A DNA stretch of 64,000 nucleotides from Candidatus Woesearchaeota archaeon (GTDB lineage Archaea; Nanobdellota; Nanobdellia; Woesearchaeales; GW2011-AR15): assembly GCA_016935095.1 (NCBI GenBank), contig JAFGRO010000002.1, positions 3,306-67,305 of the forward strand. Direction: 5' to 3'. The translations under genes were made by a program, and so were the position numbers. Of this stretch, positions 9,218-53,692 are shown one piece after another. The notes beneath the pieces were generated by a model. The model made no database searches. It saw nothing but the letters and a program-made list of their open reading frames with translations, and had not been told where the DNA came from. Every line of letters starts with the position of its first letter. Within the stretch, counting starts at the first letter, position 1.

Positions 9218-9228
9218 TTATTCCACTC

Positions 9229-11582: not shown

Positions 11583-11592
11583 TTTTTCACCT

Positions 11593-14324: not shown

Positions 14325-14403
14325 AAAATTTAAGATTCATATTTATATTTTTCGTATTTTTTCGTATTTTTTCTGGTTTTTATCTTAAAATTTAAGATTT
14401 CAT
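14325..14403. promoter_or_regulatory. Divergent promoter/operator region. Two 16-17-nt direct repeats (AAAATTTAAGATT(T)CAT at 14325-14340 and 14387-14403) flank a tandem 10-bp repeat (TTCGTATTTT x2 plus a degenerate third copy, 14351-14380) and an A/T-rich TATA-like element (ATTTATATTT).
   Basis: Read directly from the sequence. Lies between the divergently transcribed lrp (minus) and a B12-radical-SAM gene (plus). The 10-bp period matches one helical turn. Confidence 0.5.
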
Positions 14404-14507
14404 TAAATAAATTAGAGATAAAATCGGCTTAAGTATATAAAAAAGGATATTTCAGGTACTTTTTTAAATTAAACTTAATTTTCAGGATTAGAAAAAGTGA
14501 TGTAGCA

Positions 14508-15953: not shown

Positions 15954-15984
15954 ATTATTTAAATGCAATCATGTTCGTCTTAAA

Positions 15985-24067: not shown

Positions 24068-24131
24068 TTTAAATCACCCTTTTTATTATATATATTTAAA
24101 ATGAAAACTACGAACATGAGTGAGTTTGTTT

Positions 24132-25290: not shown

Positions 25291-25301
25291 TTTTTTCAGC
25301 C

Positions 25302-26288: not shown

Positions 26289-26362
26289 CCCAAGATATAA
26301 ACAAAAATAACCGCTATATAAAGCTTTCGCCGAAAAATTTATAAAGAGAAAATCTCATAAAT

Positions 26363-27103
26363 CTAATTTGTATTTAATCCTGAGTGTTTTATCTCTTCCT
26401 CAAACTCTTTTATCCTTTCTATCTTGCCAAGCTCTTTCCAGAATCCTTTTACAGGGAAACCCATTAGTTTTTTGTTTTGTTTTAGCAACAAAGGGAATAG
26501 ATCATATGCAAAATCAAATTTCCTGTTTTCAGGAATATAATCTAAAACATCTTTATTAATAACATATATCCCGGAATTAACCCAGTTTTTTTTTCCCTGT
26601 TTTAGAAAACCCTCTAAAAATTCTGGAGAGGGCCTTTCAATAAATTCAATAATCTGAAAATCAGGCTTTACATTAATTAAACTTGAGCCAATTTTGTCTT
26701 TTATTCTCATTAAAATTGTTGCTGCTGAATTATTTGCATTATGAAACTCAAGCATATCCTTAAAAGTTAAATCGGATATAATGTCTCCGTATAAAACTCC
26801 GAAAGTATCTTCAATCAAATCAGGATTAATATTTTTAACAGCACCTGCTGTCCCAAGTAATTCTTTTTCCTGGCTGTAAGTTAAATTAACACCAAGTTCT
26901 TTCCCTTCTTTAAAATAATCTTTGATTCTTTCTGATAAGTGGCCTACACATAAAATAATATCTGTAATGCCTTGTTTTTTCAATAACTGTAATTGATACC
27001 AAAGAAGCGGCTTTTCATTGACCTCAATCATTGATTTTGGCATCTTTTCTGTTAAAGGATGCATCCTTGTTGCCAGACCGCCGCAGATAATAACAACTTG
27101 CAT
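26363..27103 (-). CDS. hddC: Sugar-phosphate nucleotidyltransferase, D-glycero-alpha-D-manno-heptose-1-phosphate guanylyltransferase-like (HddC)
   Basis: MQVVIICGGLATRMHPLTEKMPKSMIEV is the NTP_transferase G-x-G-x-R signature. Operon context. Confidence 0.8.
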   Translation of the reverse strand: MQVVIICGGLATRMHPLTEKMPKSMIEVNEKPLLWYQLQLLKKQGITDIILCVGHLSERIKDYFKEGKELGVNLTYSQEKELLGTAGAVKNINPDLIEDTFGVLYGDIISDLTFKDMLEFHNANNSAATILMRIKDKIGSSLINVKPDFQIIEFIERPSPEFLEGFLKQGKKNWVNSGIYVINKDVLDYIPENRKFDFAYDLFPLLLKQNKKLMGFPVKGFWKELGKIERIKEFEEEIKHSGLNTN

Positions 27104-27104
27104 T

Positions 27105-28040
27105 TTATTTGTTTAACAGAATATTTACTGTTTTATTTACAGCCTCTTCAGAATTAAATTCAGGCTTCCAGCCTAGATTACAGATTTTTCCAGCAGATAA
27201 ATATGAAACAGGGACGTCTCCTTTCCAGCCCTGTTTTGAGCCTGTATATTTTAATTTTACATTTTTTAGTTCCATTCCTTTAATGACTGATTTTGCAATA
27301 AAGTTCACATCACAAGTCCCCTCAGAAGCAAGATTAAAAATATTCAGCTGTTCTTTGGAATTATTCAACCCGAAAAAAATTCCTTTAATGCAATCTTCCA
27401 CATATAAATAATGCTTGGTCTGGTGGCCATCCCCTAATATCAATAACTCATCGGGATTTTTTTTAAGCTTTTTAATAAAATCAAAAATCACGCCATGAGT
27501 TTGTCTTTTCCCGATAATATTTGCAAACCTGAATATCCATGCCCTGAAATTGAAAATATGGCAAAACGCACTGATTAAATTTTCAGAATAGACTTTGCTT
27601 GCAGCATATAGTGAGATAGTTAATTTTCCGCTGTAATTTTCATCAGCAACATCTTTACCGGTATTGCCATAGACTGTGCCGCTGGATGAAAACACAATTT
27701 TATTAATATTATTTAATCTCATGGCTTCAAGGACATTATATGTTGCTACGGCATTTTGCTTTAAATCCAGATTAGTCTCTTTTAAGCCGCGTAAAACATC
27801 AGGGTTGGCTGCAAAATGAAAGACAACATCATGCTCTTTAATAGAATCTTTGAGCTTTTCAAAATCCAGTATATCTGCATGAATAAACTTGAATTTATCA
27901 TTTTCAAAATAGTGCTTTAAAAAATCCTTTTTTCCAGAGCTTAGATTATCATAAACAGTTACAGTATGACCTTCTTCAATTAGCATGTCAACTAAATTAC
28001 TTCCAATGAATCCGGCTCCTCCTGTGATAAATGCTTTCAT
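27105..28040 (-). CDS. NAD-dependent nucleotide-sugar epimerase/dehydratase (SDR extended family)
   Basis: MKAFITGGAGFIGSNLVDMLIEEGHTVTVYDNLSSG. YxxxK is expected at YAASK. First gene of the heptose operon. Confidence 0.8.
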   Translation of the reverse strand: MKAFITGGAGFIGSNLVDMLIEEGHTVTVYDNLSSGKKDFLKHYFENDKFKFIHADILDFEKLKDSIKEHDVVFHFAANPDVLRGLKETNLDLKQNAVATYNVLEAMRLNNINKIVFSSSGTVYGNTGKDVADENYSGKLTISLYAASKVYSENLISAFCHIFNFRAWIFRFANIIGKRQTHGVIFDFIKKLKKNPDELLILGDGHQTKHYLYVEDCIKGIFFGLNNSKEQLNIFNLASEGTCDVNFIAKSVIKGMELKNVKLKYTGSKQGWKGDVPVSYLSAGKICNLGWKPEFNSEEAVNKTVNILLNK

Positions 28041-28387: not shown

Positions 28388-29935
28388 TTAAGGAATTGAA
28401 GTAAGTATAGAACTTTTGACAGTATTTATACTTGTATTATCTTTTTTTGGGACTAAAATATTAGCTACAACTTTTGGGAGCCCGCTAACATCCTGCTTTC
28501 TGATATGTTCAATACCACATCTTAACAGAAATAATATCTGATTTATTGTAAATAACATCTTTGGAATCTTAATATTGCCTTTTTTATTATATACTTTAAG
28601 TAGAATTCGTGAAAGGGTTTTATTCTGCGTACTCTGTATGACAGTGAGAATGTAATTTAACAATTTGTAGTTTGGATTAAACATACTATCGTTGTAATAT
28701 TTTTCAAGTAAGTTCAGCTCTTTTGCTTTATTGTATAATTCTGTACCAGGATAAAATCGAAGGGAGTATAAGAATAATGTAAATTTTCCCTTTAAATTCA
28801 GCAAAAACTTAATTGTGGAGAGCAAATCTTCTTCATTATTAACTAAAGGATTATCCATGATAATATCATAATAGGGAAATACTAAATTATTATAACTATT
28901 AATCATATCATTAACTTCAATAATTTTTGATATATTGGTAGGTCTCCTGTATAGTTTTAAGGTTTTCAAATCAGCTGATTGTATACCCATCCTTGTTCTC
29001 TTCATTCCCGCATTAACAAGAATGTCCAGTTTTTTTTTTGTGACAAAAGAAGGCATAAATCCCATTATTCCAAAAGGTATTTTTATCTCCTTTTTGTATA
29101 TTTTAGCAAATTGTTCAAGTGTTTCTTCTTTCATTGCTATGAAACCATCATCTGAAAAATTAATATATCTTATATCACGTGAAAGTGATAGGGCATATTT
29201 AATTTCATCAATTATATAATTAACACTATGGAATCTGAACTTCTCATATCCTTTTCCGATTTGTTTGTATTTGCTGTTTACACAATATGAGCAAGAATAT
29301 GGGCAACCTAAACTGGCAAAAATATGATACACAGAACCTATTAATTTTCTTCTGATCTTTTTATCTACTCTAATTATCTTATTTTTTTTAAGAATAAATT
29401 GATGACTAATTCCATAATCCGGAAAGGGCATATTATCAATGTTTTGTATTACAGGCCTAATCTTATTTTTTATAATTTTTCCATTTTGATTCATACTCCA
29501 AATATTCTGAATATTTGTTCTTGTTGGTTCTCTACAATACTCCAACAGGGAGTCAAACCCTTCTCCAATATTAATGAGGCCAGATATTTTTATTGCATCT
29601 TCAGGGAAGATAGTCGGATGAATCCCTCCCAAAATAATCGGTTTTTTTAGTTTTTTCAATGATTTGTACAATGAAGCAACTCTTTTCCTATCCATACTCA
29701 TCATTGTAATTCCAATTAAATCACACTCTTTTATTATTGAGTTTATTTGTTTAATTATGTTATTACTATACTCAGAAAAAGATTGTCTAAAAAATAATTG
29801 CCACATTTCTGAATACGTAGTTAAGAAGATAAGTTTTGTTTCAATTTTATTTTTTCTTAAGTAAGAAGACACCAACCTCAGACCATATGCCCTATAACTA
29901 TCTAATGGACTGATTAAGGCTACTTTTTTTATCAT
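28388..29935 (-). CDS. Cobalamin-binding radical SAM protein (second paralog)
   Basis: N-terminal B12-binding-like domain (VALISPLDS...DLIGITMM...ILGGIHPT). Radical-SAM motif SLGCPYSCSYC. Confidence 0.8.
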   Translation of the reverse strand: MIKKVALISPLDSYRAYGLRLVSSYLRKNKIETKLIFLTTYSEMWQLFFRQSFSEYSNNIIKQINSIIKECDLIGITMMSMDRKRVASLYKSLKKLKKPIILGGIHPTIFPEDAIKISGLINIGEGFDSLLEYCREPTRTNIQNIWSMNQNGKIIKNKIRPVIQNIDNMPFPDYGISHQFILKKNKIIRVDKKIRRKLIGSVYHIFASLGCPYSCSYCVNSKYKQIGKGYEKFRFHSVNYIIDEIKYALSLSRDIRYINFSDDGFIAMKEETLEQFAKIYKKEIKIPFGIMGFMPSFVTKKKLDILVNAGMKRTRMGIQSADLKTLKLYRRPTNISKIIEVNDMINSYNNLVFPYYDIIMDNPLVNNEEDLLSTIKFLLNLKGKFTLFLYSLRFYPGTELYNKAKELNLLEKYYNDSMFNPNYKLLNYILTVIQSTQNKTLSRILLKVYNKKGNIKIPKMLFTINQILFLLRCGIEHIRKQDVSGLPKVVANILVPKKDNTSINTVKSSILTSIP

Positions 29936-30169: not shown

Positions 30170-30916
30170 TCAGGGTTTTTGGTAAACAAAAAACAGAGAT
30201 AAACCCACTGGAAAATGAAAAGAATGTTTAATTAAAAAATTTTCAAAATTCAGTATCCTGTATAAAATCCAGTTAAAAAGAGGATTAAGGTTAATTAATT
30301 CGGATTTTTCATCTTTAACAAAAATCTTAAGAATTAATTTTCTGAAAGCCATAGGAAAAAATAAAATACAATTCCAATAATAAATGTAAACCTTTTTAAA
30401 TTTTTTAAATAATCTTTCAATGTCTCTTTTTGAATATCTCCTATAGTGTTTTTCATATAGGTCCATGGGTCCAAATAAAACCTTATGTGCCGGAACAGTG
30501 CCAATAAACAGACCTCCTTTTTTTAAGATTCGAAAAGCTTCTTTTACTGTTTTTTTATCATCTTTGATATGTTCAAGAACATCTGAACAAATTACAATAT
30601 CAAACTTTTTTTTAAAATCCAGCTTGTTGGCATCCATTAATAAAATCTTTTTTTGTTTTTTTTTTAATATATTAACTATTTTTATGGAAATGTCAATAGA
30701 AGTTACATCTCCGTATTTTTCATATGATTCAATATCTTCACCGACACCTACTCCTTCATTTAATATTATAACCTTCTTTTTGTTTTTCTTAAGAACCAGC
30801 ATTTCAAGGAATTTTGCAATTAATTCTCTTTTTGCACGAAACCACCAGTAATCTTTCTGATAGCCTAATGTTTTATAATCCTGATAATCCATTTTTTTCT
30901 TTAAACTTACTGTCAA
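30170..30916 (-). CDS. Class I SAM-dependent methyltransferase
   Basis: VIILNEGVGVGED is motif I. DIVICSDVLEHI and LKKGGLFI resemble motifs II and III. Confidence 0.7.
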   Translation of the reverse strand: MTVSLKKKMDYQDYKTLGYQKDYWWFRAKRELIAKFLEMLVLKKNKKKVIILNEGVGVGEDIESYEKYGDVTSIDISIKIVNILKKKQKKILLMDANKLDFKKKFDIVICSDVLEHIKDDKKTVKEAFRILKKGGLFIGTVPAHKVLFGPMDLYEKHYRRYSKRDIERLFKKFKKVYIYYWNCILFFPMAFRKLILKIFVKDEKSELINLNPLFNWILYRILNFENFLIKHSFHFPVGLSLFFVYQKP

Positions 30917-31595
30917 GTCTTCTTTTTAAAACTATTAAATCAAATGCCATTTTAAAGGGATCATAAATACTCATTTTGCTATTATCCTTGTGTTCCCATT
31001 CAATAGGAATATTTGTTAAAGTAAAATTTAATTTATTAATCCTGTAAAATAATTCAACATCAAAAATCCACCCTGTTGAATCTAATGAACTGAATAATTT
31101 TCTTGCCACATCTGATTTAAACCCTTTAAATCCACAAAGATTATCTTCAATCCCTAAACCGAAGATTAAATTAACATATGGGTTAAACAAAGAGGAGGTA
31201 AATTTTCTTAATAAAGGTTGATTTATACTTGATTCTTCTAATGACCTGTTTCCGACAACAACATCATACTCCTCCAGTTTTTCAATCATTTTCGGAATCT
31301 CTTTTGGCTTAATTGAGCCATCTGCATCAATAAACATGACTTTTTCTGCCTTTGAGCTGAATATTCCTTTTCTTATTGCATATCCTTTCCCGCGGTTTTT
31401 TGAGTAGGTAATTATTCTGCAGTTATTATTCTGCACTTTTTTAAGTTTAGATAATGTTCTGTCAGTGCTGCCGTCATTGACTAATATAATCTCATAATCT
31501 TCTAATCCTTCTTTACAAAAAGAGATGAGTTCATTTAAGAAAGGAAGAGCCCTTTTCTCTTCATTGTACAAAGGAACTATTATTGAACAATCCAT
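30873..31595 (-). CDS. Family 2 glycosyltransferase, polyprenol-phosphate sugar synthase-like (GtrB/DPM1-like, soluble form)
   Basis: CSIIVPLYNEEKRALPFL..EIILVNDGSTDRT...FIDADG are GT2 signature motifs. Confidence 0.8.
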   Translation of the reverse strand: MDCSIIVPLYNEEKRALPFLNELISFCKEGLEDYEIILVNDGSTDRTLSKLKKVQNNNCRIITYSKNRGKGYAIRKGIFSSKAEKVMFIDADGSIKPKEIPKMIEKLEEYDVVVGNRSLEESSINQPLLRKFTSSLFNPYVNLIFGLGIEDNLCGFKGFKSDVARKLFSSLDSTGWIFDVELFYRINKLNFTLTNIPIEWEHKDNSKMSIYDPFKMAFDLIVLKRRLDSKFKEKNGLSGL

Positions 31596-31601
31596 TCTAT
31601 T

Positions 31602-32531
31602 TCATCTGTTTTTTTCAAGTGTTTTTATCTCCATCAGCGCACTAGGGATTAAGATGTTATAAGCATACAACATGTATCTAAAAACAGAGTTACCTATAAA
31701 AAGTTGTGCAAGTATTAAAAAAATCAAAGGAAATGCTTTTTTTACAAACCGCGGAGCTATCTTATAATTTTTTAAAGCAAATATCCAAATACTTGAATAA
31801 ATTATTATTACAATTAAAAGATAATAGGGTCTAGTAAGCAGCATTCTTAAACCAAACCAGTTATCCTTTAAATTAGCATAAAATATGGGATCTCCAACTT
31901 CGGTTCCACCTAAATTAAACTTTATTAAATAAACAGTTATTATTATTAAAGCAATTAACAAACCGGTTCTTACTAATTTTTTTTTTTGAAGAAAATAAAA
32001 AACAGGGCAAAATAAAATTTGAATCTTGTTTAATGCACCAATTACACATACTAAACAGAGCCACATAAAATGTGCATTAATAAGCATTAAATAAAAAAAT
32101 AATGTTTGCAGAAAAATTGAAATTGCATCTGCTTTTACCCATACTAAATAATGAGTTGAGGGATTAAGCAAAAAAAGCAACACTCCAATAAATGCAATAA
32201 TTCTGGAAAAACCTAGCTTTTTTAAATAATAAAAAAACACAATAGTTGTAGAAATAACAAAAAAAGAATTTAATATAAAAAAGTTAATATGAACATTAAA
32301 GGGAAGAAACTTGACTAACAAGGGAGTTAATATCCTGTATTTCATATTTGTATTTTCCTGGAGTAACTTTCCTTGACTCATCTCAATATAAGTCTTGCTG
32401 TCCCATGACTCTTCCCAGTACTGGTGGTAGAATCTATAGCTTATTCCGGACCAGAGAGTTGCACAAGCCCCTAAAATAAGAATAATTATAATTAAATCTT
32501 TTTTCAATTCTTTAGATAAAATCAAAACCAC
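31602..32531 (-). CDS. Polytopic integral membrane protein (about 9 predicted TM helices), unknown function. Possible glycan polymerase or GT-C-like component.
   Basis: Hydrophobic throughout with regularly spaced ~20-aa apolar segments. No recognisable soluble domain. Confidence 0.45.
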   Translation of the reverse strand: MVLILSKELKKDLIIIILILGACATLWSGISYRFYHQYWEESWDSKTYIEMSQGKLLQENTNMKYRILTPLLVKFLPFNVHINFFILNSFFVISTTIVFFYYLKKLGFSRIIAFIGVLLFLLNPSTHYLVWVKADAISIFLQTLFFYLMLINAHFMWLCLVCVIGALNKIQILFCPVFYFLQKKKLVRTGLLIALIIITVYLIKFNLGGTEVGDPIFYANLKDNWFGLRMLLTRPYYLLIVIIIYSSIWIFALKNYKIAPRFVKKAFPLIFLILAQLFIGNSVFRYMLYAYNILIPSALMEIKTLEKNR

Positions 32532-32534
32532 CTG

Positions 32535-32888
32535 CTACTTTTTCATTCTCATTAAACAAACTCCAAGACCCCCTAAAAATACTAATAGAGGAATTAATAT
32601 ATATATAAATTTATTCAATGGGACACCGATCATTGATAAGATAAACCACAAAGTCGGACAGACAACCAGGCCGATAATATTGCAGATAATAAATTTTTCA
32701 ATAAATGAGAGATCTAAAAGAGAGGTCCATGTAAGATATGGAAAAAAGAACAAATACCAATAAACAACTCCGAATTTCAATGCTTTTAAAATATCATTGA
32801 AAACAGCACCAATAATTAACCAGACAATTAATCCGGAGATGCCTAAATAAATCATGTCTTTATTTCTTTTATCTCTTTGTTTTTTCAT
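32535..32888 (-). CDS. Small 4-TM membrane protein, GtrA-like (polyprenol-linked sugar translocation family)
   Basis: 117 aa with four hydrophobic helices. Neighbours a GtrB-like GT2 and a UbiA-family enzyme. Confidence 0.45.
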   Translation of the reverse strand: MKKQRDKRNKDMIYLGISGLIVWLIIGAVFNDILKALKFGVVYWYLFFFPYLTWTSLLDLSFIEKFIICNIIGLVVCPTLWFILSMIGVPLNKFIYILIPLLVFLGGLGVCLMRMKK

Positions 32889-34485
32889 TTTTCAGTATAA
32901 CAATATTGTTCTGCTCATAAATTTTCGTAAAATTATTTATGTTTATGAGAATATCATTAATTATAAACTGGTTCAGTTGCCAGATGTTCTGGTTTAGATG
33001 CTCAAAAATAATATAATCAAAGTCTATGAACCGTTTAGGACAAAATCCAATTTCCTGTTTTTCATAATTAAAAAGAGACAGCTCTTTTTCAAACCTGATA
33101 ACAAAACTGCTTCCTTCCGGGCAAAAATCAATCTCAGGGAGTTCTCTGTTTTCTGCAATATATTGTGCTGCTTCCGGAAGTCTTTCAACTTCTAAAATAT
33201 AGTTTGCCCTTTTAAGGAACATATTTGCTCCCTGGTAAAACCCGTCAAAAAAGAAAATTAAGTCATCTTCAGTGGTTATACTGTTCAGCCAGTTCAGCAA
33301 ATCAAACTTCTCTTTTGTTATATGCTGGTATTGTAGCCTGTTTTTTAATTCAGTATAATGAGGGATTCCCGCTGCAATAAATATTAAACAAACAGCTAAA
33401 ACTATAATTGTTTTATTCAGGTTGATTAAATTTGCAATATTTTTTACAAGGAGAGAATAAATAATATAAGCTGCTATCGGATAAACAAAAAAAGGCAAAA
33501 TTGCCTTATGTCTTAAGATATAAGTCGGAACTATAAACATTGCGCCTATGTAAATATAGGCAAAGAAATAACCTTCTAATAAAATAAAATCCTTGTATTT
33601 TTTCCAGTTTAGTAATACCTGAATTAAGCCTGTTATTGCCAAAATCAATATTATTATTGACAAATCACTTAATTCCGGAAAAAGCAGGGGAATCTTTTCA
33701 GAAGGTATATGGAATTTAATACTGTTTTTGCCCCTGTTTTCAAACCACATTAATACCCTTGGTATGTAAAGTACAAACGGGATTATTGAAATGAGACCCA
33801 TGATCAGGATTCTCCTGGATATCTGGATTATATTTTTGCATTTGATGATCTTAATTAGAACAATAAACAGTAATGGAATAAAAGCAGCAAGCTCAGAAAA
33901 ATGGCTTAAGTAAATCCCTGTTAATGCTAATGTTAAAACAATTGTTTTCCAGAACTTTTCTTCAATTACGTAATCATAGAAGATATAATATGAAAATATT
34001 AATAACAGATTGCCCAGTGCCTGGATGCTCATGCCAATGTATGAGTTATAGATCCATACGTCTATATTAAATGGGAGAACAAACATGCTCCCTGCAATCA
34101 ATCCGATTTTTTTTGAATTAAAAATCTTTGATGCAAAAATATATATTATCAATATCTGGAATGCATTGTAAACCATCCCGAAAATAGCCGAAATATTCCA
34201 TGTCTGCAATCCTGTCACTTTTCCTGTTGCTGCAACATGAATATAAAATAAGGGGGGAAGTACATTGATAATATCTGCTTTATTATACACAAAATAAGGC
34301 GGCATATTTTTATAGGATCCTGTATTGATGATATTATCTGCAACAAGCTGATGATTAAATGCATCTGCTGCCTTAAGGTTTCCTGGATAATCAAAAATAC
34401 CTACCGTTGAAATTCTGAGAATTAAACCCAAAACAAATAAAATAAGGATTATCCAGTCTTCATTGATTATTATTTTATTTTTCAT
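32869..34485 (-). CDS. Large polytopic membrane protein (about 11 TM helices) with a C-terminal soluble domain of roughly 160 aa. Candidate GT-C-type glycosyltransferase.
   Basis: Topology inferred by eye from the hydrophobic profile. The C-terminal ~160 aa (LKNRLQYQHITKEKF...) are hydrophilic. Confidence 0.45.
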   Translation of the reverse strand: MKNKIIINEDWIILILFVLGLILRISTVGIFDYPGNLKAADAFNHQLVADNIINTGSYKNMPPYFVYNKADIINVLPPLFYIHVAATGKVTGLQTWNISAIFGMVYNAFQILIIYIFASKIFNSKKIGLIAGSMFVLPFNIDVWIYNSYIGMSIQALGNLLLIFSYYIFYDYVIEEKFWKTIVLTLALTGIYLSHFSELAAFIPLLFIVLIKIIKCKNIIQISRRILIMGLISIIPFVLYIPRVLMWFENRGKNSIKFHIPSEKIPLLFPELSDLSIIILILAITGLIQVLLNWKKYKDFILLEGYFFAYIYIGAMFIVPTYILRHKAILPFFVYPIAAYIIYSLLVKNIANLINLNKTIIVLAVCLIFIAAGIPHYTELKNRLQYQHITKEKFDLLNWLNSITTEDDLIFFFDGFYQGANMFLKRANYILEVERLPEAAQYIAENRELPEIDFCPEGSSFVIRFEKELSLFNYEKQEIGFCPKRFIDFDYIIFEHLNQNIWQLNQFIINDILININNFTKIYEQNNIVILKNEKTKR

Positions 34486-34488
34486 TAT

Positions 34489-35361
34489 CTATAAAAAGTA
34501 TACCGAAATAAATGCAATTACTGCCCAGAGCAGGATTCCGGAAAAAATCTTTTTGTCCTTGTATATCAAATGGGGATGCCTTGTAATTTTTGAGCCTGAT
34601 TCCACAAGGTAAAGATACCTGAAAATCACATACAAGGAAACAGGCAGGCTAAACAAAAGATAAGTGAATTCACTAAAAAAGATATACAGGCTGTAAACAA
34701 TAATCAATATTGTAGTTGAGATTACTGTTAATGCCTTAGTCAGGCTCAGATTATAATAGCCCAGAACTTTTTTATGGGAGACAGATTTTTTTCCTAACAG
34801 CTTCAAGTCAGATTCCCTTTTGCTGACAGATAAAAACAATGATAAAAAAAAAGGACAGAAAATCAGCCATTGGCTTACTTTTACATAAGGGAGGTTGCCC
34901 TGTGAAATTACAAAAGCGCCGCTTACAGCCCTTATTACAAAATTTATTGCAATAATGACAACATCAATAAATGGCTCATTTTTTAATATCAGTGAATAAA
35001 AAGTCCCGGTTATAAAAAGGCTTAAAACAAAAATAAAAAACATTAATGATAAATTAAAACTGCTTAAAAAAGATACTATTAATAATAATGATGCTATAAT
35101 AACTGCACTTAGTTTTGTAATTCTTCCGGATGCCAGCGGTCTTGTCCTTTTTTCAGGGTGTGCTTTATCCTGCTTAATATCAATTAAATCGTTAATTATA
35201 TAATTCACAGAAGAAACCAGGCATAATATAAAGAACCCGTAAACTGTTTTCTGGATTGCAGATAAATTAAATAATTGTTTAGCAAACACCAGAGGAAGAA
35301 ATATTACCAGATTTTTATAATACTGGTGAGGTCTTGCGAGCTTTATTAAATCTTTAATCAT
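34489..35361 (-). CDS. UbiA-family prenyltransferase, decaprenyl-phosphate phosphoribosyltransferase (DPPR synthase)-like
   Basis: LARPHQYYKNLVIFLPLVFA plus the Asp-rich motif NDLIDIKQDKAHPEKRTRPLASG (NDxxDxxxD) typical of the UbiA/DPPR-synthase clade. 8-9 TM helices. Confidence 0.8.
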   Translation of the reverse strand: MIKDLIKLARPHQYYKNLVIFLPLVFAKQLFNLSAIQKTVYGFFILCLVSSVNYIINDLIDIKQDKAHPEKRTRPLASGRITKLSAVIIASLLLIVSFLSSFNLSLMFFIFVLSLFITGTFYSLILKNEPFIDVVIIAINFVIRAVSGAFVISQGNLPYVKVSQWLIFCPFFLSLFLSVSKRESDLKLLGKKSVSHKKVLGYYNLSLTKALTVISTTILIIVYSLYIFFSEFTYLLFSLPVSLYVIFRYLYLVESGSKITRHPHLIYKDKKIFSGILLWAVIAFISVYFL

Positions 35362-35435: not shown

Positions 35436-36518
35436 ATGGAAAATATGGCTAAGTCAAAAGTCATAGTTTTAAAAACAAAACCAGGCAATGTGCTCAATGA
35501 TTACAAAAAGCTGATGGAACTTGCTGATTTTAAAAAACACATTCCTGTTAATGAAGAGACTTTAATCAAATTGAATTTGTCCTGGTCATTGTATTTTCCC
35601 GCATGCTCAACAGAACCATGGCAGCTCGAGGGAGTTCTCAAAACATTGATTGGCTCAAATTATAATCCAAAAAAACTGCATGCAGTTGAAAATAAGACTG
35701 TTGTTACAAATGTCTGGAAAGGGGCAAAAGGCAATAAATGGCTGCCCTTATTAAAAAAATATAATGTTGAATATGAGCCGCTGACAGAAGTAAAATGGGT
35801 TAAGTATAAGCCAAAAGCAAAACTAGATGCAATTCCACAGCTTTATCCTGAAGGTCATTTGATTCCTGAGATGTTTATTGGAAAGAACATTATACATCTT
35901 CCTACAGTCAAAACACACGGCCATACAACAATTACCGGCTCTATGAAAAATGCATTCGGCGGCCTGATTACAGAAAGAAGACATCATTCCCATAAGCTTA
36001 TACATGAGGTATTGGTTGATTTATTAAAAATCCAGAAGGAAATTCACCCGAATATATTTACTGTAATGGATGGCACTGTCTGTGGAGAAGGTGCAGGACC
36101 GCGCACAATGGAGCCGGTGATTAAAGATTATATTTTAGCCAGCTCTGACCCAGTGGCAATTGATGCTGTCTCTGCAAAAATGATGGGTTTTGAGCCATTG
36201 AAAATTAAATTTATAAAAATGGCTAATGATTACGGTCTCGGCAAAGGAGATTTAAGCCAGGTTGAAGTTATTGGTGAAGATATTTCAAAAATAAATTTCG
36301 GGTTCAAAACAAAAAAATCACTTGTGGTTTTTTTTGACCAGATATTGAGGACAAAATATCCTGTCCTGGAGCCAATCCTTTTTCATACGCCTCTATTTAA
36401 GATATGCATATTCGGCAGTGCATTTTATCATGATTATTTATGGTACCCGGTTGTTGGCAAAAGAAAAATCAGGAAATTCCTGAAAACAGAATGGGGGGAA
36501 TTATTCAGTAAATATTGA
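35436..36518 (+). CDS. DUF362-domain protein (COG2006-like; uncharacterised)
   Basis: The KTHGHTTITGSMKNAFGGL region and overall length fit DUF362. Assigned from memory of the family pattern; moderate certainty. Confidence 0.55.
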   Translation: MENMAKSKVIVLKTKPGNVLNDYKKLMELADFKKHIPVNEETLIKLNLSWSLYFPACSTEPWQLEGVLKTLIGSNYNPKKLHAVENKTVVTNVWKGAKGNKWLPLLKKYNVEYEPLTEVKWVKYKPKAKLDAIPQLYPEGHLIPEMFIGKNIIHLPTVKTHGHTTITGSMKNAFGGLITERRHHSHKLIHEVLVDLLKIQKEIHPNIFTVMDGTVCGEGAGPRTMEPVIKDYILASSDPVAIDAVSAKMMGFEPLKIKFIKMANDYGLGKGDLSQVEVIGEDISKINFGFKTKKSLVVFFDQILRTKYPVLEPILFHTPLFKICIFGSAFYHDYLWYPVVGKRKIRKFLKTEWGELFSKY

Positions 36519-36563: not shown

Positions 36564-37241
36564 ATGGATAAAACATACATTGTTATTCCTGCATATAATG
36601 AGCAGAACTCGATCAAAAAAGTAATACAGGATTTAAAAAAGCAGGGGTACATGAATATTATCGTAGTTGATGACGGGAGCATTGATAAAACAGGTAAAAT
36701 CGCAAAACAACAGGGAGCCATTGTTTTAAGTCATTTAATCAACCGCGGCCAGGGTGCAGCACTGAAAACAGGAATAGACTTTGCTTTAATGAAAAAAGCA
36801 GATATAATTGTGACATTTGATGCAGACGGACAGTTCCTTGCAAAGGACATAAAAAAAGTAATTATGCCTGTAAAAAAAGGCAACGCAGAGGTTGTTTTAG
36901 GCTCAAGATTTCTAGGAAAGGCAAAAAATATCCCTCTTTTTAAAAAGATTGTCTTGAAGTTAGGCGTATTACTTGTGTTTTTTTTATATGGGATTAAAGT
37001 AACAGACTCGCAAAATGGGTTCAGGGCATTTTCCAGGCATGCTGCGTCACAGATTGAAATCAGGAGCAATAAAATGGAACATGCCGGAGAAATCTTCCAT
37101 GAAATTAAAAAAAATAATCTGGCTTTTAAAGAGGTTCCTGTTACTGTTTTATATACAAGATATTCATTACAGAAAGGACAATCATGGTCAAGAAGCATTA
37201 TGCTAGGCTTAAAAATGATATTAAAAAAATTAATGGTGTAA
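36564..37241 (+). CDS. Family 2 glycosyltransferase (Dpm1/GtrB-like, soluble)
   Basis: YIVIPAYNEQNSIKKVIQDL...IIVVDDGSIDKT...TFDADGQF are GT2 signature motifs. Confidence 0.85.
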   Translation: MDKTYIVIPAYNEQNSIKKVIQDLKKQGYMNIIVVDDGSIDKTGKIAKQQGAIVLSHLINRGQGAALKTGIDFALMKKADIIVTFDADGQFLAKDIKKVIMPVKKGNAEVVLGSRFLGKAKNIPLFKKIVLKLGVLLVFFLYGIKVTDSQNGFRAFSRHAASQIEIRSNKMEHAGEIFHEIKKNNLAFKEVPVTVLYTRYSLQKGQSWSRSIMLGLKMILKKLMV

Positions 37242-37580
37242 ATGAAAATGAATATAATCCAATTATTTGCAATATTATTCAGCTTATTTGCGGCAAGCAG
37301 GGTTTTTTTAAGGACAAAAGACAAAAAACTTACAATACCTGAATTTGTTTTCTGGATGTTTATATGGGGCTCGTTGATAATAACTGCATTTATTCCTGAT
37401 GTGACTAGCATGATAGCTAATTTTGTAGGTATAGGAAGAGGCGTGGATATTATTATCTACATGAGTATAGGAACAGTATTTTATCTCATTTTCAGGCTTT
37501 ATGTTAAATTAGAGGATGTAGAGCGGGAACTCACTGTTGTTATAAGAGAGCTGGCTTTTATGAAGAAAAGGAAAAAATGA
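37242..37580 (+). CDS. Small membrane protein, DUF2304-like (commonly paired with GT2 enzymes)
   Basis: 112 aa with 3 TM helices and a charged C-terminal tail. 1-nt spacing from the upstream GT2 and 4-nt overlap with the downstream GT4. Confidence 0.55.
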   Translation: MKMNIIQLFAILFSLFAASRVFLRTKDKKLTIPEFVFWMFIWGSLIITAFIPDVTSMIANFVGIGRGVDIIIYMSIGTVFYLIFRLYVKLEDVERELTVVIRELAFMKKRKK

Positions 37581-38719
37581 AGATTCTGTTTATCACTGAG
37601 TATTTTCCAAGTAGCTCAAAACTTAATATTAGAGGAGGAATAGAAGCAAGAATATATTTAATTGCAAAAGAGCTCGCGAAAAAACACAATATCTCAATAA
37701 TATGTTCAAGAGAGAAAAACACTAAATCATTTGAGGAAATAGATAAAATAAATATATTTCGTGTTGGCAGTCCAAGGGATTATATACAATCTGGTTCAGT
37801 ATTCTCCAGAATGGAATTTATGATTTCAGCATTTATTGAAGGGAGAAAAATTGATTTTGATATTGTTGAAGGGCAAAATTTTTTTTCATATTTACCTGCT
37901 TATATGCTCTCAAAAGTAAAAAGGAAGCCAGGTATCTCAATGTATGCAGACACTATTAAAAATAATTGGCTGAAATATCTTGGGTTTTTTGACGGGCTTG
38001 TAATGGAGATTTTTGAAAGAATCCTGTTCTTGTTTAAAAATAAGTATTTTATTACAATAAGTAATCATGTTAAAAATAAATTAATTAAATCTAGGATAAA
38101 TAAAGAAAAAATTAAGGTTGTATATTGCGGCATTGACCTAAAAAAATACAAATTCAAGGATAAAAAATACCCTCAGAAAACAATATGTTGTGTTGCAAGA
38201 CTTGCGAAGCATAAAAGAATAGATGATTTATTAAAAGCAATAAAAATCCTGAAAAAACATTACCCTGAAATCAGGTGCAGGTTAATCGGAACTGGCCCAG
38301 AAAAAAGCAAACTTGAAAAAGTAGTGAATGAACTTAAGATTAAAAAAAATGTTAAGTTTTTAGGCTTTCTAAAAAATCATAAAGAAGTAATAAGAGAGAT
38401 TAAAAAATCACATCTGGTTTGTCTGCCTTCATTAACAGAGGGATTCGGCATTATTACAATAGAAGCCATGGCATGTAATGTTCCTTATGTGAATTCAGAT
38501 ATTCCTGCAACAAGGGAAATTACCAAAGCAGGGCAGGGCGGCCTGCTCTTTAAACCTGGAGATTACAGGGATTTGGCAGAAAAGATTATATACTTGCTGA
38601 GCAATAAAAAAATATATGCAGAAAAAGCAAAACAAGGGAAGGAATTTGTGCAAAAATATGATATAAAAAATATTGCAGATGAGCTTGAGAGGATATATTT
38701 AAATTTGGTTGAAAAATGA
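37577..38719 (+). CDS. GT-B glycosyltransferase, family 4-like (Glycos_transf_1)
   Basis: C-terminal LVCLPSLTEGFGIITIEAMACNVPYVNSD is the EX7E-type GT4 motif. Confidence 0.85.
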   Translation: MKILFITEYFPSSSKLNIRGGIEARIYLIAKELAKKHNISIICSREKNTKSFEEIDKINIFRVGSPRDYIQSGSVFSRMEFMISAFIEGRKIDFDIVEGQNFFSYLPAYMLSKVKRKPGISMYADTIKNNWLKYLGFFDGLVMEIFERILFLFKNKYFITISNHVKNKLIKSRINKEKIKVVYCGIDLKKYKFKDKKYPQKTICCVARLAKHKRIDDLLKAIKILKKHYPEIRCRLIGTGPEKSKLEKVVNELKIKKNVKFLGFLKNHKEVIREIKKSHLVCLPSLTEGFGIITIEAMACNVPYVNSDIPATREITKAGQGGLLFKPGDYRDLAEKIIYLLSNKKIYAEKAKQGKEFVQKYDIKNIADELERIYLNLVEK

Positions 38720-53691: not shown

Positions 53692-53692
53692 A

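What the first reader, a model, noticed from the sequence alone, without database searches (positions are those of the whole stretch)
30170..35361. DPPR-synthase-like UbiA prenyltransferase, GtrA-like protein, GT2 and polytopic membrane proteins: a decaprenyl-phospho-arabinose-like lipid-linked donor system
The minus-strand operon runs UbiA-family (NDxxDxxxD, DPPR-synthase-like), an 11-TM protein, a 4-TM GtrA-like protein, a 9-TM protein, a soluble GT2 and a methyltransferase. This parallels the mycobacterial arrangement where UbiA (Rv3806c) makes polyprenyl-P-ribose-5-P, a GtrA-like protein (Rv3789) handles the lipid-linked sugar, and GT-C enzymes use it outside the membrane.

An analogous polyprenyl-phospho-pentose (or other phosphosugar) pathway in an archaeon would be a novel donor system for surface glycan decoration.
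Basis: inference. Interest (0 to 1): 0.65.

Follow-up and report, generated by a model that had tools for sequence, protein, structure and literature searches.

The report
Archaeal lipid-linked pentose glycosylation operon
A DPANN archaeon carries an operon whose first enzyme looks like the tuberculosis enzyme that loads phosphoribose onto a lipid carrier, followed by two outward-facing membrane glycosyltransferases; similar gene sets occur widely in archaea, but none has been tested in the laboratory.

Summary
The ORFs are real and form a tight six-gene minus-strand operon (30170-35361) on a Ca. Woesearchaeota contig.

The UbiA protein is a genuine relative of DPPR/PPPRS phosphoribosyltransferases, not a DGGGP synthase. 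Its only solved relative by sequence is M. tuberculosis Rv3806c. Thirteen of 15 Rv3806c PRPP/Mg/lipid-phosphate positions are essentially invariant in 110 homologs.

The 538-aa and 309-aa membrane proteins are both divergent GT-C glycosyltransferases. The 117-aa protein is not GtrA-like by sequence; it is a conserved, translationally coupled partner of the 538-aa GT-C.

No DprE1/DprE2, 5'-phosphatase or recognisable flippase lies in the window, so "arabinose" is unsupported. The default sugar is ribofuranose or an unknown derivative.

Across 80 genomes (DPANN, Asgard, methanogens, Thermococcus, some bacteria) this UbiA clade sits beside DUF362, PHP phosphoesterase, MprF-like or ArnE/F-like flippase candidates and GT-Cs.

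It is best read as an uncharacterised archaeal variant of the bacterial three-component pentofuranose system.

The parts
34489..35361 (-). UbiA-superfamily polyprenyl-phosphate 5-phosphoribosyltransferase homolog (DPPRS/PPPRS-like), first gene of the operon
   Evidence: PF01040 E 4e-29. NCBIfam best hit is DPPR synthase NF008977 at 196.9 bits, E 4.7e-58 (below the 234 cut-off). The second hit is the HAD-UbiA fusion model NF006088. GGGP/DGGGP-type prenyltransferase models score only 27-59 bits. The only PDB sequence hit is Rv3806c 8j8j, E 1.4e-24, full length. R10, K16, Y54, N57, D58, D61, D65, K71, R74, Y122, K127, F141 and K181 correspond to Rv3806c R22, K28, Y70, N73, D74, D77, D81, K87, R90, Y138, K143, Y157 and K191.
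32869..34485 (-). 538-aa divergent GT-C glycosyltransferase (PMT_2/STT3-like): about 10-11 TM plus a ~150-aa C-terminal extracytoplasmic domain
   Evidence: The protein itself has no Pfam hit. The family has 334 representatives. Of 61 members, 16 hit PMT_2, 8 DUF6541, 1 STT3 and 1 PTPS_related. The family profile hits A. fulgidus AglB 3waj/5gmy at E 2.5e-8, collinear. hhalign against UbiA-adjacent PMT_2 GT-Cs gives 98.9%, E 2.8e-17. D41 in loop 1 is conserved in 59/61, H195 in 57/61, and R/K327 in 59/61. The AF2 model failed (pLDDT 35).
32535..32888 (-). 117-aa small membrane protein with about four hydrophobic segments; conserved partner of the 538-aa GT-C; role unknown (candidate accessory subunit or lipid-sugar flippase)
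   Evidence: It overlaps the 538-aa ORF by 20 nt. A homolog (34% identity, E 2e-22) likewise overlaps the closest M538 relative in L093. No Pfam hit, including GtrA, at E<=10. No similarity to ArnE/F-like or MprF-like clusters.
31602..32531 (-). 309-aa compact GT-C-fold membrane protein
   Evidence: Six homologs, 31-35% identical, with an invariant D44 after TM1 and a YRILTP motif. AF2 model pLDDT 65.5, pTM 0.68. Foldseek top hits are all GT-C (PglB, PIG-U, Pmt4, STT3, ALG9, ALG3, PimE; TM 0.52-0.55), but E is only 0.05-2. hhalign against the PMT_2 cluster gives 95.7%, E 9.6e-9 over 260 columns, with 'WDS' aligned to the PMT_2 'wDE' motif. Negative controls score below 1%.
30873..31595 (-). 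Soluble GT2; the best curated matches are polyprenyl-phosphate sugar synthases (AglJ, PgfS, ArnC, PpgS, Dol-P-hexose transferase)
   Evidence: PF00535 E 4.4e-30. NCBIfam AglJ 2.9e-21, PgfS 8e-21, ArnC 2e-19, all far below their cut-offs. No TM segment.
30170..30916 (-). Class I SAM-dependent methyltransferase, last gene of the tight operon
   Evidence: Methyltransf_11/23/25, E 1e-16 to 1e-12. It overlaps the GT2 gene.
35436..36518 (+). DUF362 protein, divergently transcribed 74 bp from the UbiA gene; the most conserved partner of this UbiA clade
   Evidence: PF04015 E 4.4e-26. DUF362 lies within 3 kb of UbiA in 31/80 loci, with 35 hits near and 0 far. The same divergent pair occurs in L005, L009 and L010. 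Mostly 58-69% identity to the window copy across archaeal phyla. It shares Pfam clan CL0471 with the LarA N-terminal domain (PMC11770544). No PDB sequence relative.
28388..29935 (-). B12-binding radical SAM enzyme, downstream on the same strand after a 234-nt gap (possible glycan- or lipid-modifying accessory; membership uncertain)
   Evidence: PF04055 plus PF02310. B12-rSAM genes also neighbour UbiA homologs in L005 and L007, but only 3/80 loci have one within 3 kb.
36564..37580 (+). PpgS-like GT2 plus DUF2304 small membrane protein: a second, separate candidate polyprenyl-phosphate sugar donor module next to the operon
   Evidence: NCBIfam PpgS NF058614, 189 bits, E 6e-56 (cut-off 370). PF10066 DUF2304, E 5.5e-24. 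The same GT2-DUF2304-GT4 trio lies near UbiA homologs in L003 and L007.

Best explanation
The operon encodes an archaeal version of the extracytoplasmic 'lipid-linked pentofuranose' glycosylation pathway.

Step 1 (strongly supported by sequence, not shown biochemically): the UbiA-fold enzyme transfers 5-phosphoribose from PRPP to a polyprenyl (dolichyl-type) phosphate on the cytoplasmic face, as Rv3806c and Citrobacter ORF15 do.

Step 2 (inferred): the 5'-phosphate is removed. Relatives encode a PHP phosphoesterase immediately downstream for this. The window has none, so an enzyme encoded elsewhere, or retention of the phosphate, must be assumed.

Step 3 (inferred): the lipid-linked sugar may be modified. 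The tightly linked DUF362 protein is the prime candidate, and the methyltransferase and B12-radical SAM enzyme are others. It is then flipped outward. Relatives use ArnE/F-like or MprF-like proteins. Here the only candidate is the 117-aa partner protein.

Step 4 (the GT-C assignment is supported; the donor pairing is inferred): the 538-aa GT-C (with the 117-aa partner) and/or the 309-aa GT-C transfer the sugar to a surface glycan, glycoprotein or lipid outside the membrane.

The adjacent soluble GT2 probably makes a second donor, a polyprenyl-phosphate hexose, for one of the two GT-Cs. The operon would then hold two donor synthases and two GT-Cs, embedded in a large surface-glycan island.
For: UbiA placement:
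- DPPR synthase models score 197/147/111 bits, against no more than 59 bits for every other UbiA subfamily.
- Rv3806c is the sole PDB hit, E 1.4e-24 over the full length.
- The residues that the Rv3806c structure paper (PMC10994848) assigns to Mg2+, the PRPP 5'-phosphate, the pyrophosphate and the polyprenyl phosphate are invariant or nearly so in 110 homologs. These include K28 and Y70, which that paper says are not conserved in prenyl-transferring UbiA enzymes.

GT-C assignment.

Operon structure.

Conserved context in 80 genomes:
- DUF362: 35 hits near, 0 far.
- PHP: 13-fold enriched.
- Flippase-like TIGR00374/LPG_synthase_TM: 35-fold.
- ArnE/F-like small EamA: 14-fold.
- GT-C: 2.7-fold.
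- 64 of 80 loci have at least one of these (or an FAD amine-oxidase-like gene) within 3 kb.

Nearest bacterial relatives: Paenibacillus has UbiA, then an ArnE/F-like protein, then a PAP2 phosphatase, then large membrane proteins. This mirrors the Rv3806c-Rv3807c pairing and the three-component scheme of PMC11127046.
Against: - There is no biochemical evidence for any archaeal member.
- The UbiA score is below NCBIfam's equivalog cut-off (196.9 vs 234).
- The ribose-O3 ligand Gln135 of Rv3806c is Gly119 in the window protein, and that column varies in the family.
- The window lacks any recognisable 5'-phosphatase, flippase or DprE1/E2-type epimerase.
- The 117-aa protein has no homology to any known flippase.
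- Which GT-C uses which donor is undetermined, and the soluble GT2 alone could supply both.
- The M538 structure prediction failed, and M309's fold matches have weak E-values.
- DPANN archaea are thought (my own knowledge) to lack isoprenoid lipid synthesis, so the carrier lipid would have to be scavenged.
Confidence: 0.6

Rival explanations
1. The UbiA homolog is the organism's membrane-lipid prenyltransferase (DGGGP synthase or similar), and its position next to glycosylation genes is incidental.
For: It is a UbiA-superfamily protein with weak hits to prenyltransferase models. DPANN genomes often lack a recognisable lipid pathway (my own knowledge), so a divergent enzyme could in principle fill in.
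Against: GGGP/DGGGP-type models score 27-59 bits against cut-offs of 269-353, while DPPR synthase scores 197 bits. No prenyl-transferring UbiA structure is hit at E<=1e-3, whereas Rv3806c is. The PRPP-specific ligands are invariant. The same family is present in Methanobacterium, Methanolobus and Thermococcus, which are expected to have their own canonical DGGGP synthase (my own knowledge).
Confidence: 0.03
2. The pathway makes a decaprenyl-phospho-arabinose-like donor specifically: lipid-P-ribose is epimerised at C2' to arabinofuranose, which is then used by arabinosyltransferase-like GT-Cs.
For: The first enzyme matches. Some related loci carry an FAD amine-oxidase-like gene plus an SDR next to the UbiA gene (L023, L028, L030, L080), which could be a DprE1/DprE2 analogue. 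One M309 homolog lies beside AftA_N-type proteins (L011). DUF362 belongs to the clan of the LarA racemases/epimerases.
Against: No DprE1 (FAD_binding_4/ALO) or DprE2 homolog, and no AmOx gene, is found in the window. The window's GT-Cs are PMT_2/STT3-like, not Emb/Aft. No epimerase activity is known for DUF362.
Confidence: 0.1
3. The phosphoribosylated lipid is an end product, a ribose-containing membrane phospholipid or glycolipid head group that an MprF-like protein flips to the outer leaflet. It is not a donor for GT-Cs, and the acceptor could be an archaeal phospholipid phosphate rather than a polyprenyl phosphate.
For: The most frequent downstream partners in Asgard archaea and methanogens are a PHP phosphoesterase and an LPG_synthase_TM/TIGR00374 'flippase-like' protein. 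Characterised relatives of the latter flip modified phospholipids; there is a weak hit to a GlcN-PG flippase. Several of those cassettes show no GT-C within five genes of the UbiA gene (the Thorarchaeota loci).
Against: In the window the UbiA gene is followed 3 nt later by a GT-C. GT-Cs are enriched next to this clade overall, in 25/80 loci within 3 kb. The polyprenyl-phosphate ligands K28 and K191 are invariant, although these would bind any lipid phosphate.
Confidence: 0.15
4. The two GT-Cs use only a polyprenyl-phosphate hexose made by the soluble GT2 (a Gtr/DPM-type three-component system). The UbiA enzyme then feeds a different, unlinked process.
For: The GT2's best matches are AglJ, PgfS and ArnC-type polyprenyl-phosphate glycosyltransferases. 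It sits 6 nt after the 309-aa GT-C. The arrangement of a small 4-TM protein, a GT2 and a GT-C resembles gtrABC by layout.
Against: The GT2 scores are generic (76 bits against a cut-off of 325). GT2 genes of this type are not enriched near the UbiA clade (near/far ratio about 0.8), whereas GT-Cs are. The UbiA and M538 genes are separated by 3 nt within one operon.
Confidence: 0.12

Closest known systems
Bacterial three-component pentofuranose side-chain systems (Citrobacter youngae O1/O2: ORF15 PPPRS-PRP, ORF14 MATE flippase, ORF12 GT-C/GT136, optional ORF13 SDR epimerase; Kelly et al. 2024, PMC11127046)
   Same: A UbiA-fold PRPP-dependent polyprenyl-phosphate phosphoribosyltransferase homolog encoded with GT-C glycosyltransferases in a surface-glycan locus. 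The overall logic is the same: make a lipid-P-pentofuranose inside and use it outside. Optional epimerases diversify the sugar.
   Different: The organism is an archaeon. There is no fused HAD phosphatase. There is no MATE flippase (relatives use ArnE/F-like or MprF-like proteins; the window has only an unrelated 117-aa protein). The GT-Cs are PMT_2/STT3-like families with no Pfam model match of their own, and I did not test them against GT136. A highly conserved DUF362 partner is present that is not among the components that paper describes.
Mycobacterial decaprenyl-phospho-arabinose pathway (Rv3806c DPPRS, Rv3807c PAP2 phosphatase, DprE1/DprE2, Rv3789 GtrA-like, Emb/Aft GT-Cs)
   Same: The first enzyme is homologous over its full length, with the catalytic, PRPP-binding and lipid-phosphate-binding residues conserved. 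It is used together with GT-C enzymes.
   Different: There is no PAP2 phosphatase, no DprE1/DprE2, no GtrA homolog and no Emb/Aft-type GT-C in the window. The sugar is therefore not predicted to be arabinose.
Undecaprenyl-phosphate L-Ara4N system (ArnC, ArnE/ArnF, ArnT) and Gtr-type O-antigen glucosylation (GtrA, GtrB, GtrC)
   Same: The operon also contains a soluble GT2 of the ArnC/GtrB/AglJ type and PMT_2/ArnT-like GT-Cs. Related archaeal loci carry tandem ArnE/F-like small EamA proteins.
   Different: In those systems the donor synthase is the GT2, which uses a nucleotide sugar. Here a PRPP-dependent UbiA-type synthase leads the operon. The window's small membrane protein is homologous to neither ArnE/F nor GtrA.
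Archaeal AglB/STT3 oligosaccharyltransferase
   Same: The 538-aa family profile aligns collinearly with A. fulgidus AglB (E 2.5e-8). It keeps an STT3-like segment after the last TM helix (W-x-A-x2-W-I-x2-N-T-P-x-D ... F-F-Y-G).
   Different: The C-terminal domain is much shorter (~150 aa). The WWDYG motif is degenerate (FFYG; FFFDGFYQG in the window copy). More family members hit PMT_2 than STT3. Nothing shows that the acceptor is a protein Asn.

Membership tests
DPPRS/PPPRS (UbiA-fold polyprenyl-phosphate 5-phosphoribosyltransferase) | UbiA-superfamily fold/domain | tested here: met
   PF01040, 102 bits, E 4e-29.
DPPRS/PPPRS (UbiA-fold polyprenyl-phosphate 5-phosphoribosyltransferase) | Closer to DPPRS than to any other UbiA subfamily | tested here: met
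   NF008977 197 bits, NF006088 (HAD-UbiA fusion type) 169, NF008978 147 and NF008976 111, against no more than 59 bits for all other subfamilies. Rv3806c is the only PDB hit.
DPPRS/PPPRS (UbiA-fold polyprenyl-phosphate 5-phosphoribosyltransferase) | Reaches NCBIfam's curated equivalog cut-off | tested here: not met
   196.9 bits against a cut-off of 234 for NF008977. Some archaeal homologs are nevertheless named DPPRS by NCBI.
DPPRS/PPPRS (UbiA-fold polyprenyl-phosphate 5-phosphoribosyltransferase) | Mg2+ ligands and NDxxDxxxD motif (Rv3806c N73, D74, D77, D81) | tested here: met
   N57, D58, D61 and D65 in the window protein; 109/110 in the family.
DPPRS/PPPRS (UbiA-fold polyprenyl-phosphate 5-phosphoribosyltransferase) | PRPP 5'-phosphate and pyrophosphate ligands (K28, Y70, R22, K87, R90, Y138, K143) and lipid-phosphate ligands (K28, Y157, K191) | tested here: met
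   R10, K16, Y54, K71, R74, Y122, K127 and K181 are kept and invariant or nearly so. Y157 is Phe (F141), a substitution the structure paper also reports in some mycobacteria.
DPPRS/PPPRS (UbiA-fold polyprenyl-phosphate 5-phosphoribosyltransferase) | Ribose O3 ligand Gln135 and cleft Lys208 | tested here: inconclusive
   Q135 aligns to G119 in the window copy. The column is T/S/N/G, but a Gln is the family consensus one position away. K208 aligns to K198 in the window, but that column varies in the family.
DPPRS/PPPRS (UbiA-fold polyprenyl-phosphate 5-phosphoribosyltransferase) | PRPP-dependent phosphoribosyl transfer to polyprenyl phosphate | not testable with these tools
   Needs an enzyme assay.
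Three-component pentofuranose glycosylation system (PMC11127046) | GT-C glycosyltransferase encoded with the PPPRS | tested here: met
   M538 lies 3 nt downstream. It is a GT-C. M309 is a GT-C.
Three-component pentofuranose glycosylation system (PMC11127046) | 5'-phosphoribose phosphatase (fused HAD PRP or separate PAP2) | tested here: not met
   None is in or beside the operon. The only HAD in the window (24132-24692) sits in the heptose cluster. Relatives instead have a PHP phosphoesterase at +1, and Paenibacillus has a PAP2.
Three-component pentofuranose glycosylation system (PMC11127046) | Dedicated flippase (MATE, or SMR/GtrA-type) | tested here: not met
   No MATE, Wzx, GtrA or small-EamA protein is in the window. 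M117 has no homology to these. Relatives carry ArnE/F-like or TIGR00374 flippase-like genes.
Mycobacterial DPA pathway | DprE1/DprE2 2'-epimerase pair | tested here: not met
   No FAD_binding_4/ALO or DprE2-type hit among the window ORFs scanned.
Mycobacterial DPA pathway | Emb/Aft-type arabinofuranosyltransferase GT-C | tested here: not met
   M538 family members hit PMT_2, DUF6541 and STT3, not Emb/Aft families. M309 has no Pfam hit.
GtrA family (PF04138; Rv3789-like) | Sequence match to the GtrA model for the 117-aa protein | tested here: not met
   No GtrA hit at E<=10. Only its size and about four hydrophobic segments agree.
GT-C glycosyltransferase superfamily | Polytopic membrane protein with a conserved acidic residue in the first extracytoplasmic loop | tested here: met
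   M538 D41 is conserved in 59/61. M309 D44 is invariant in 7/7. M309's Asp aligns directly to the 'wDE' motif of PMT_2 GT-Cs; for M538 the alignment starts two residues after D41.
GT-C glycosyltransferase superfamily | Detectable homology or fold similarity to established GT-C families | tested here: met
   M538 family: PMT_2 in 16/61 members, AglB E 2.5e-8, hhalign 98.9%. M309: hhalign 95.7% and Foldseek top hits all GT-C with TM about 0.53, although E>=0.05 and model pLDDT is 65.
DGGGP synthase (archaeal lipid UbiA) | Match to DGGGP/GGGP-type prenyltransferase models | tested here: not met
   27-59 bits against cut-offs of 269-353.

The most novel reading that the evidence does not exclude
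Archaea from DPANN to Asgard and methanogens possess their own conserved lipid-linked pentofuranose donor pathway. In it, the highly conserved DUF362 protein (LarA clan; mostly 58-69% identical to the window copy across phyla and strictly linked to the UbiA gene) is a new kind of enzyme. It would convert the lipid-linked (phospho)ribose into a different sugar, for example as an epimerase or isomerase. This would give archaea a surface-glycan donor with no bacterial counterpart. The PHP phosphoesterase and the MprF-like or ArnE/F-like proteins would serve as non-orthologous replacements for the bacterial phosphatase and flippase.
Probability: 0.2. Interest if true: 0.8.

Novelty: new variant of a known kind. 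Interest (0 to 1): 0.58.

Why it matters
Lipid-linked pentofuranose donors (DPA in mycobacteria, undecaprenyl-P-ribofuranose in Gram-negative bacteria) have so far been treated as a bacterial matter. I know of no lipid-phospho-pentose donor described in archaea, and the literature searches found none.

If the prediction holds, three things follow:
- A large, phylogenetically broad set of archaea, including cultivable Methanobacterium and Methanolobus strains, decorate their surfaces by a PRPP-derived, GT-C-dependent route.
- Two uncharacterised GT-C families and the widespread DUF362 family gain a functional context.
- The pathway becomes directly testable in cultured organisms. That could also explain surface-glycan diversity in host-dependent DPANN archaea.

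Tried and rejected
- **AlphaFold2 model of the 538-aa protein** from a 2-sequence alignment: unusable (pLDDT 35), so no fold search was possible for it.
- **DUF362 against the PDB**, by single sequence and by a 21-sequence profile: no relative found, LarA included. The LarA link therefore rests only on Pfam clan membership as quoted in PMC11770544.
- **The 117-aa protein** against GtrA (Pfam, E<=10), ArnE/F-like and MprF-like clusters, by hmmsearch and hhalign: nothing. The 'GtrA-like' label is rejected as a homology claim.
- **M309 and M117 in the 80 UbiA loci:** no hits. They are rare accessories, not part of the conserved core.
- **M309 family profile against PDB sequences:** no hit.
- **The part of the source contig outside the window:** the look-up with the first ORF failed, as there was no exact product on record.
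- **tRNA and Rfam scans of the window:** empty.
- **Neighbour clusters c339 (Tyr/Trp-tRNA synthetase) and c358 (NFACT):** judged unrelated syntenic neighbours.
- **DGGGP synthase reading:** considered and rejected.

Full report
**1. What is in the sequence**

The window is a low-GC (about 32%) stretch. It is from a Candidatus Woesearchaeota (DPANN archaeon) metagenome-assembled contig: the UbiA, 538-aa and 309-aa products are identical or nearly so to NCBI proteins from a 75.8-kb contig with locus tags JXB41_00280 to _00290.

The ORFs are packed like an operon (coordinates):
- UbiA to the 538-aa protein (M538): 3-nt gap.
- M538 to the 117-aa protein (M117): 20-nt overlap.
- M117 to the 309-aa protein (M309): 3-nt gap.
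- M309 to GT2: 6-nt gap.
- GT2 to the methyltransferase: overlap.
- Then 234 nt before a B12-radical SAM gene.

A DUF362 gene is transcribed divergently 74 bp upstream of the UbiA gene.

The operon sits inside a roughly 50-kb surface-glycan island. The island contains:
- two NeuB-type nonulosonic-acid clusters;
- a nucleotide-heptose-like pathway;
- many GT2 and GT4 genes;
- a PMT_2 GT-C;
- a PpgS-like GT2 with a DUF2304 partner;
- four radical-SAM genes.

No tRNA or Rfam family is present.

**2. The UbiA homolog is a DPPRS/PPPRS-type phosphoribosyltransferase homolog**

Pfam gives UbiA. Among NCBIfam's curated models the three DPPR synthase models score 197, 147 and 111 bits. The model for HAD-UbiA fusions scores 169 bits; this is the architecture of the characterised Citrobacter ORF15 enzyme. 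Every other UbiA subfamily (GGGP/DGGGP-type, heme O synthase, UbiA, MenA-like, chlorophyll synthase, EboC) scores 59 bits or less. The top score is below the equivalog cut-off of 234, so this is not an orthology call by NCBI's rules.

Against all PDB sequences the only hit at E<=1e-3 is M. tuberculosis Rv3806c (8j8j), at E 1.4e-24, aligned end to end. No prenyl-transferring UbiA structure is hit.

The Rv3806c cryo-EM paper (PMC10994848) assigns these residues:
- Mg2+: N73, D77.
- Ribose: N73, Q135.
- 5'-phosphate: K28, Y70, Y157.
- Pyrophosphate: R22, K87, R90, Y138, K143, with K208 lining the cleft.
- Decaprenyl phosphate: K28, Y157, K191.

The paper states that the phosphoribose-binding sites are not conserved in the rest of the UbiA superfamily.

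I aligned Rv3806c with 110 members of the window's family:
- R22, K28, Y70, N73, D74, D77, D81, K87, Y138 and K191 are invariant.
- R90 is R/K and K143 is K/R.
- Y157 is Phe almost everywhere, a substitution the paper notes in some mycobacteria.
- Only Q135 (Gly119 in the window copy) and K208 vary.

This is as strong a functional assignment as sequence can give.

**3. The two large membrane proteins are GT-C glycosyltransferases**

M538 itself has no Pfam or NCBIfam hit, and the word-indexed search found only one homolog. An exhaustive profile search found 334 representatives, mostly full-length proteins of about 540 aa.

In a 61-member alignment, 16 members individually hit PMT_2, 8 hit DUF6541, 1 hit STT3 and 1 hit PTPS_related. 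The family profile hits Archaeoglobus fulgidus AglB (3waj/5gmy) at E 2.5e-8. The match is collinear through the TM domain and into the segment after the last TM helix. There the family keeps an STT3-like W/Y-D/E-A-x2-W-I-x2-N-T-P-x-D ... F-F-Y-G-D-x-Q ... K-R pattern. That this resembles the region leading to the STT3 WWDYG motif is my own reading.

hhalign against the PMT_2 GT-Cs found next to UbiA homologs in other archaea gives 98.9% probability, E 2.8e-17, over 285 columns. Controls against unrelated polytopic families give less than 1%. Conserved positions include P34 (61/61), D41 in the first extracytoplasmic loop (59/61), H195 (57/61) and R/K327 (59/61). The AF2 model failed (pLDDT 35).

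M309 has six homologs, 31-35% identical, one of them from a Methanomicrobiales genome. They share an invariant Asp (D44) right after TM1 and a YRILTP motif. The AF2 model is of moderate quality (pLDDT 65.5, pTM 0.68). Its best Foldseek matches in the PDB are all GT-C folds: PglB, PIG-U, Pmt4, STT3, ALG9, ALG3 and PimE, with TM 0.52-0.55. The E-values are weak, at 0.05-2.

Independent support comes from hhalign against the PMT_2 cluster: 95.7%, E 9.6e-9, 260 columns. M309's 'WDS' sits on the PMT_2 'wDE' loop-1 motif.

**4. The 117-aa protein is not GtrA-like by sequence**

It has no Pfam hit at E<=10, GtrA included. It shows no similarity to the ArnE/F-like or MprF-like candidate flippases found in related loci.

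It is, however, a conserved partner of M538. The closest M538 relative (44% identity, L093) is followed by an overlapping 118-aa ORF that is 34% identical to M117 (E 2e-22). Its role, whether accessory subunit or flippase, is open.

**5. What is missing**

No DprE1/DprE2, PAP2, HAD-PRP, PHP, MATE, Wzx, GtrA or small EamA gene occurs in the window. The sugar therefore cannot be called arabinose, and two steps of the known pathways (5'-dephosphorylation and flipping) have no candidate here apart from M117.

**6. Comparative genomics**

The UbiA clade is very widespread. There are 838 homologs at E<=1e-10 in the protein collection and at least 578 loci among GTDB species representatives. The best 80 loci span:
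- DPANN lineages: Woese-, Nano-, Parv-, Micr-, Alti- and Aenigmatarchaeota;
- Asgard archaea: Thor-, Heimdall- and Hermodarchaeota;
- cultured methanogens: Methanobacterium oryzae DSM 11106 and Methanolobus bombayensis DSM 7082;
- a Thermococcus;
- bacteria: Paenibacillus, Chloroflexia, Bacteroidales and Nomurabacteria.

I clustered the three genes on either side in those 80 loci without prior assumptions and annotated the clusters with Pfam and NCBIfam:

| Neighbour | Loci (of 80) | Notes |
|---|---|---|
| DUF362 | 29 | |
| PHP/PHP_C phosphoesterase | 22 | 15 at +1 on the same strand |
| LPG_synthase_TM / TIGR00374 'flippase-like' | 18 | 13 at +2 on the same strand |
| SDR epimerase | 13 | |
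| PMT_2/GT22 GT-C | 12 | |
| GT4 | 11 | |
| Small half-EamA protein | 10 | best matches ArnF/ArnE; often in tandem pairs |
| FAD amine-oxidase-like | 9 | |
| Metallophos | 8 | |

Densities within 3 kb compared with 3-10 kb away:

| Partner | Near vs far |
|---|---|
| DUF362 | 35 vs 0 hits |
| LPG_synthase_TM | 35-fold |
| Small EamA | 14-fold |
| PHP | 13-fold |
| AmOx | 5-fold |
| GT-C | 2.7-fold |

One caveat is that the clusters were defined from near neighbours, so there is some ascertainment bias.

Typical cassettes:
- Thor- and Hermodarchaeota: Metallophos > DUF362 > UbiA > PHP > flippase-like.
- Methanobacterium: UbiA > PHP > flippase-like > DUF362 (> PMT_2).
- Methanolobus: GT2 > DUF362 > PMT_2 > UbiA > PHP > flippase-like.
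- DPANN variant 1: DUF362 > AmOx > PHP < DUF362 < UbiA.
- DPANN variant 2: M538-family > SDR > SDR < AmOx < UbiA ... ArnE/F-like x2.
- DPANN variant 3: GT2 > c250 > PMT_2 > UbiA.
- Paenibacillus: UbiA > ArnE/F-like > PAP2 > two large membrane proteins. This mirrors the mycobacterial Rv3806c-Rv3807c pairing.

The window's closest relatives (L009, L010) keep the divergent DUF362-UbiA pair.

DUF362 partners are mostly 58-69% identical to the window copy across phyla, far more conserved than the UbiA itself (37-50%). DUF362 shares Pfam clan CL0471 with the LarA racemase N-terminal domain (PMC11770544). I could not link them by sequence.

**7. Interpretation**

The best reading is an archaeal variant of the 'three-component' extracytoplasmic pentofuranose glycosylation pathway defined in bacteria in 2024 (PMC11127046) and related to mycobacterial DPA synthesis.

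The proposed steps are:
1. UbiA makes polyprenyl-P-ribose-5-P from PRPP.
2. A phosphatase removes the 5'-phosphate (PHP in relatives; unknown here).
3. Optional tailoring follows (DUF362; in some loci AmOx plus SDR; here perhaps also the methyltransferase and B12-rSAM).
4. The lipid-sugar is flipped outward (ArnE/F-like or MprF-like in relatives; possibly M117 here).
5. GT-Cs transfer the sugar (M538, M309).

The soluble AglJ/ArnC-like GT2 probably supplies a second, hexose donor.

What is shown is the homology and residue conservation, the GT-C nature of the two proteins, the operon structure and the conserved neighbourhoods. What is inferred is the substrate, the sugar identity, the donor-GT-C pairing, the acceptor, and the roles of M117 and DUF362.

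**8. Novelty**

That bacterial paper does not discuss archaeal systems. My literature searches found no description of an archaeal DPPRS/PPPRS system, although NCBI's pipeline already names some archaeal members DPPRS.

The first enzyme and the general logic are known. The domain of life, the set of accessory proteins (PHP, MprF-like, DUF362), and the two GT-C families that lack model matches of their own are new. I therefore rate this a new variant of a known kind, of moderate to good interest. Its main value is that it points to a broadly conserved, testable archaeal pathway and gives DUF362 a context.

Noticed in passing
window 36564-39984 (+): A GT2 that matches NCBIfam's PpgS model (polyprenyl-phospho-GalNAc synthase; 189 bits, below cut-off), followed by a DUF2304 small membrane protein and two GT4s. 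The same GT2-DUF2304-GT4 trio sits near UbiA homologs in L003 and L007. From my own knowledge, it parallels the mycobacterial PpgS (Rv3631)/Rv3632 pair, which would make it a second lipid-linked donor module.
   Followed up: partly
window 35436-36518 (+); alignment A5 from loci L014-L077: The UbiA-linked DUF362 proteins are mostly 58-69% identical to the window copy in Woesearchaeota, Thermococcus, Methanobacterium and Methanolobus, which is much more conserved than the UbiA. Invariant residues include K45, N47, K159, H161, K171, H190, D195, D212, D238 and D243. No solved relative was found by sequence.
   Followed up: partly
window 23417-28040 (-): Transaldolase, HAD phosphatase, SIS isomerase, GHMP kinase, nucleotidyltransferase and SDR epimerase in a row. 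This looks like a nucleotide-activated heptose (glycero-manno-heptose-type) pathway.
   Followed up: no
window 217-14220 (-): Two NeuB-type nonulosonic-acid synthesis clusters: NeuB at 1683-2714 and 9229-10365, with a UDP-GlcNAc 2-epimerase, a DegT aminotransferase, two CMP-type cytidylyltransferases, a His_biosynth+GATase fusion and a formyltransferase-like gene.
   Followed up: no
window 14508-15953, 17665-18687, 28388-29935, 47431-49164: Three B12-binding radical SAM enzymes and one SPASM radical SAM enzyme are scattered through the glycan island, which suggests unusual C-methylation or other radical tailoring of sugars or lipids.
   Followed up: no
window 52567-55535 and 57204-63301 (+): Thiolase, enoyl-CoA hydratase and 3-hydroxyacyl-CoA dehydrogenase, followed by two sets of 2-oxoacid:ferredoxin oxidoreductase subunits and an Fe-alcohol dehydrogenase. 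This is a butyrate/beta-oxidation-like block on a DPANN contig.
   Followed up: no
L023, L028, L030 (DPANN) and L080 (Bacteroidales), next to the UbiA gene: An FAD amine-oxidase-like protein (NCBIfam PRK07233, 249 bits) paired with one or two SDR enzymes sits directly beside the UbiA gene. This could be a non-orthologous analogue of the DprE1 (oxidase)/DprE2 (reductase) epimerisation pair.
   Followed up: partly
L011 (GCA_019058445.1) 12072-16925: A homolog of the 309-aa GT-C lies in a cluster with two ~600-aa proteins that hit AftA_N (PF12250), the N-terminal domain of mycobacterial arabinofuranosyltransferase AftA.
   Followed up: no
window 32869-34485; alignment A3: The M538 GT-C family keeps an STT3/AglB-like segment after the last TM helix (W/Y-D/E-A-x2-W-I-x2-N-T-P-x-D ... 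F-F-Y-G-D-x-Q ... K-R). It looks like a degenerate counterpart of the region leading to the WWDYG motif. The window copy is itself divergent there (NSITTEDD ... FFFDGFYQG).
   Followed up: partly
L085, L090, L091, L092 (Paenibacillus spp.): Bacterial members of the same UbiA clade sit in the order UbiA > ArnE/F-like small EamA > divergent PAP2 (DUF212) > 558-aa > 753-aa membrane proteins with no Pfam match. This is probably an uncharacterised Gram-positive pentofuranose system.
   Followed up: partly
window 43455-45146 (+): A further PMT_2/PMT-type GT-C (563 aa) lies about 8 kb from the operon, flanked by GT4 and GT2 genes. It is another possible user of the lipid-linked donors.
   Followed up: no
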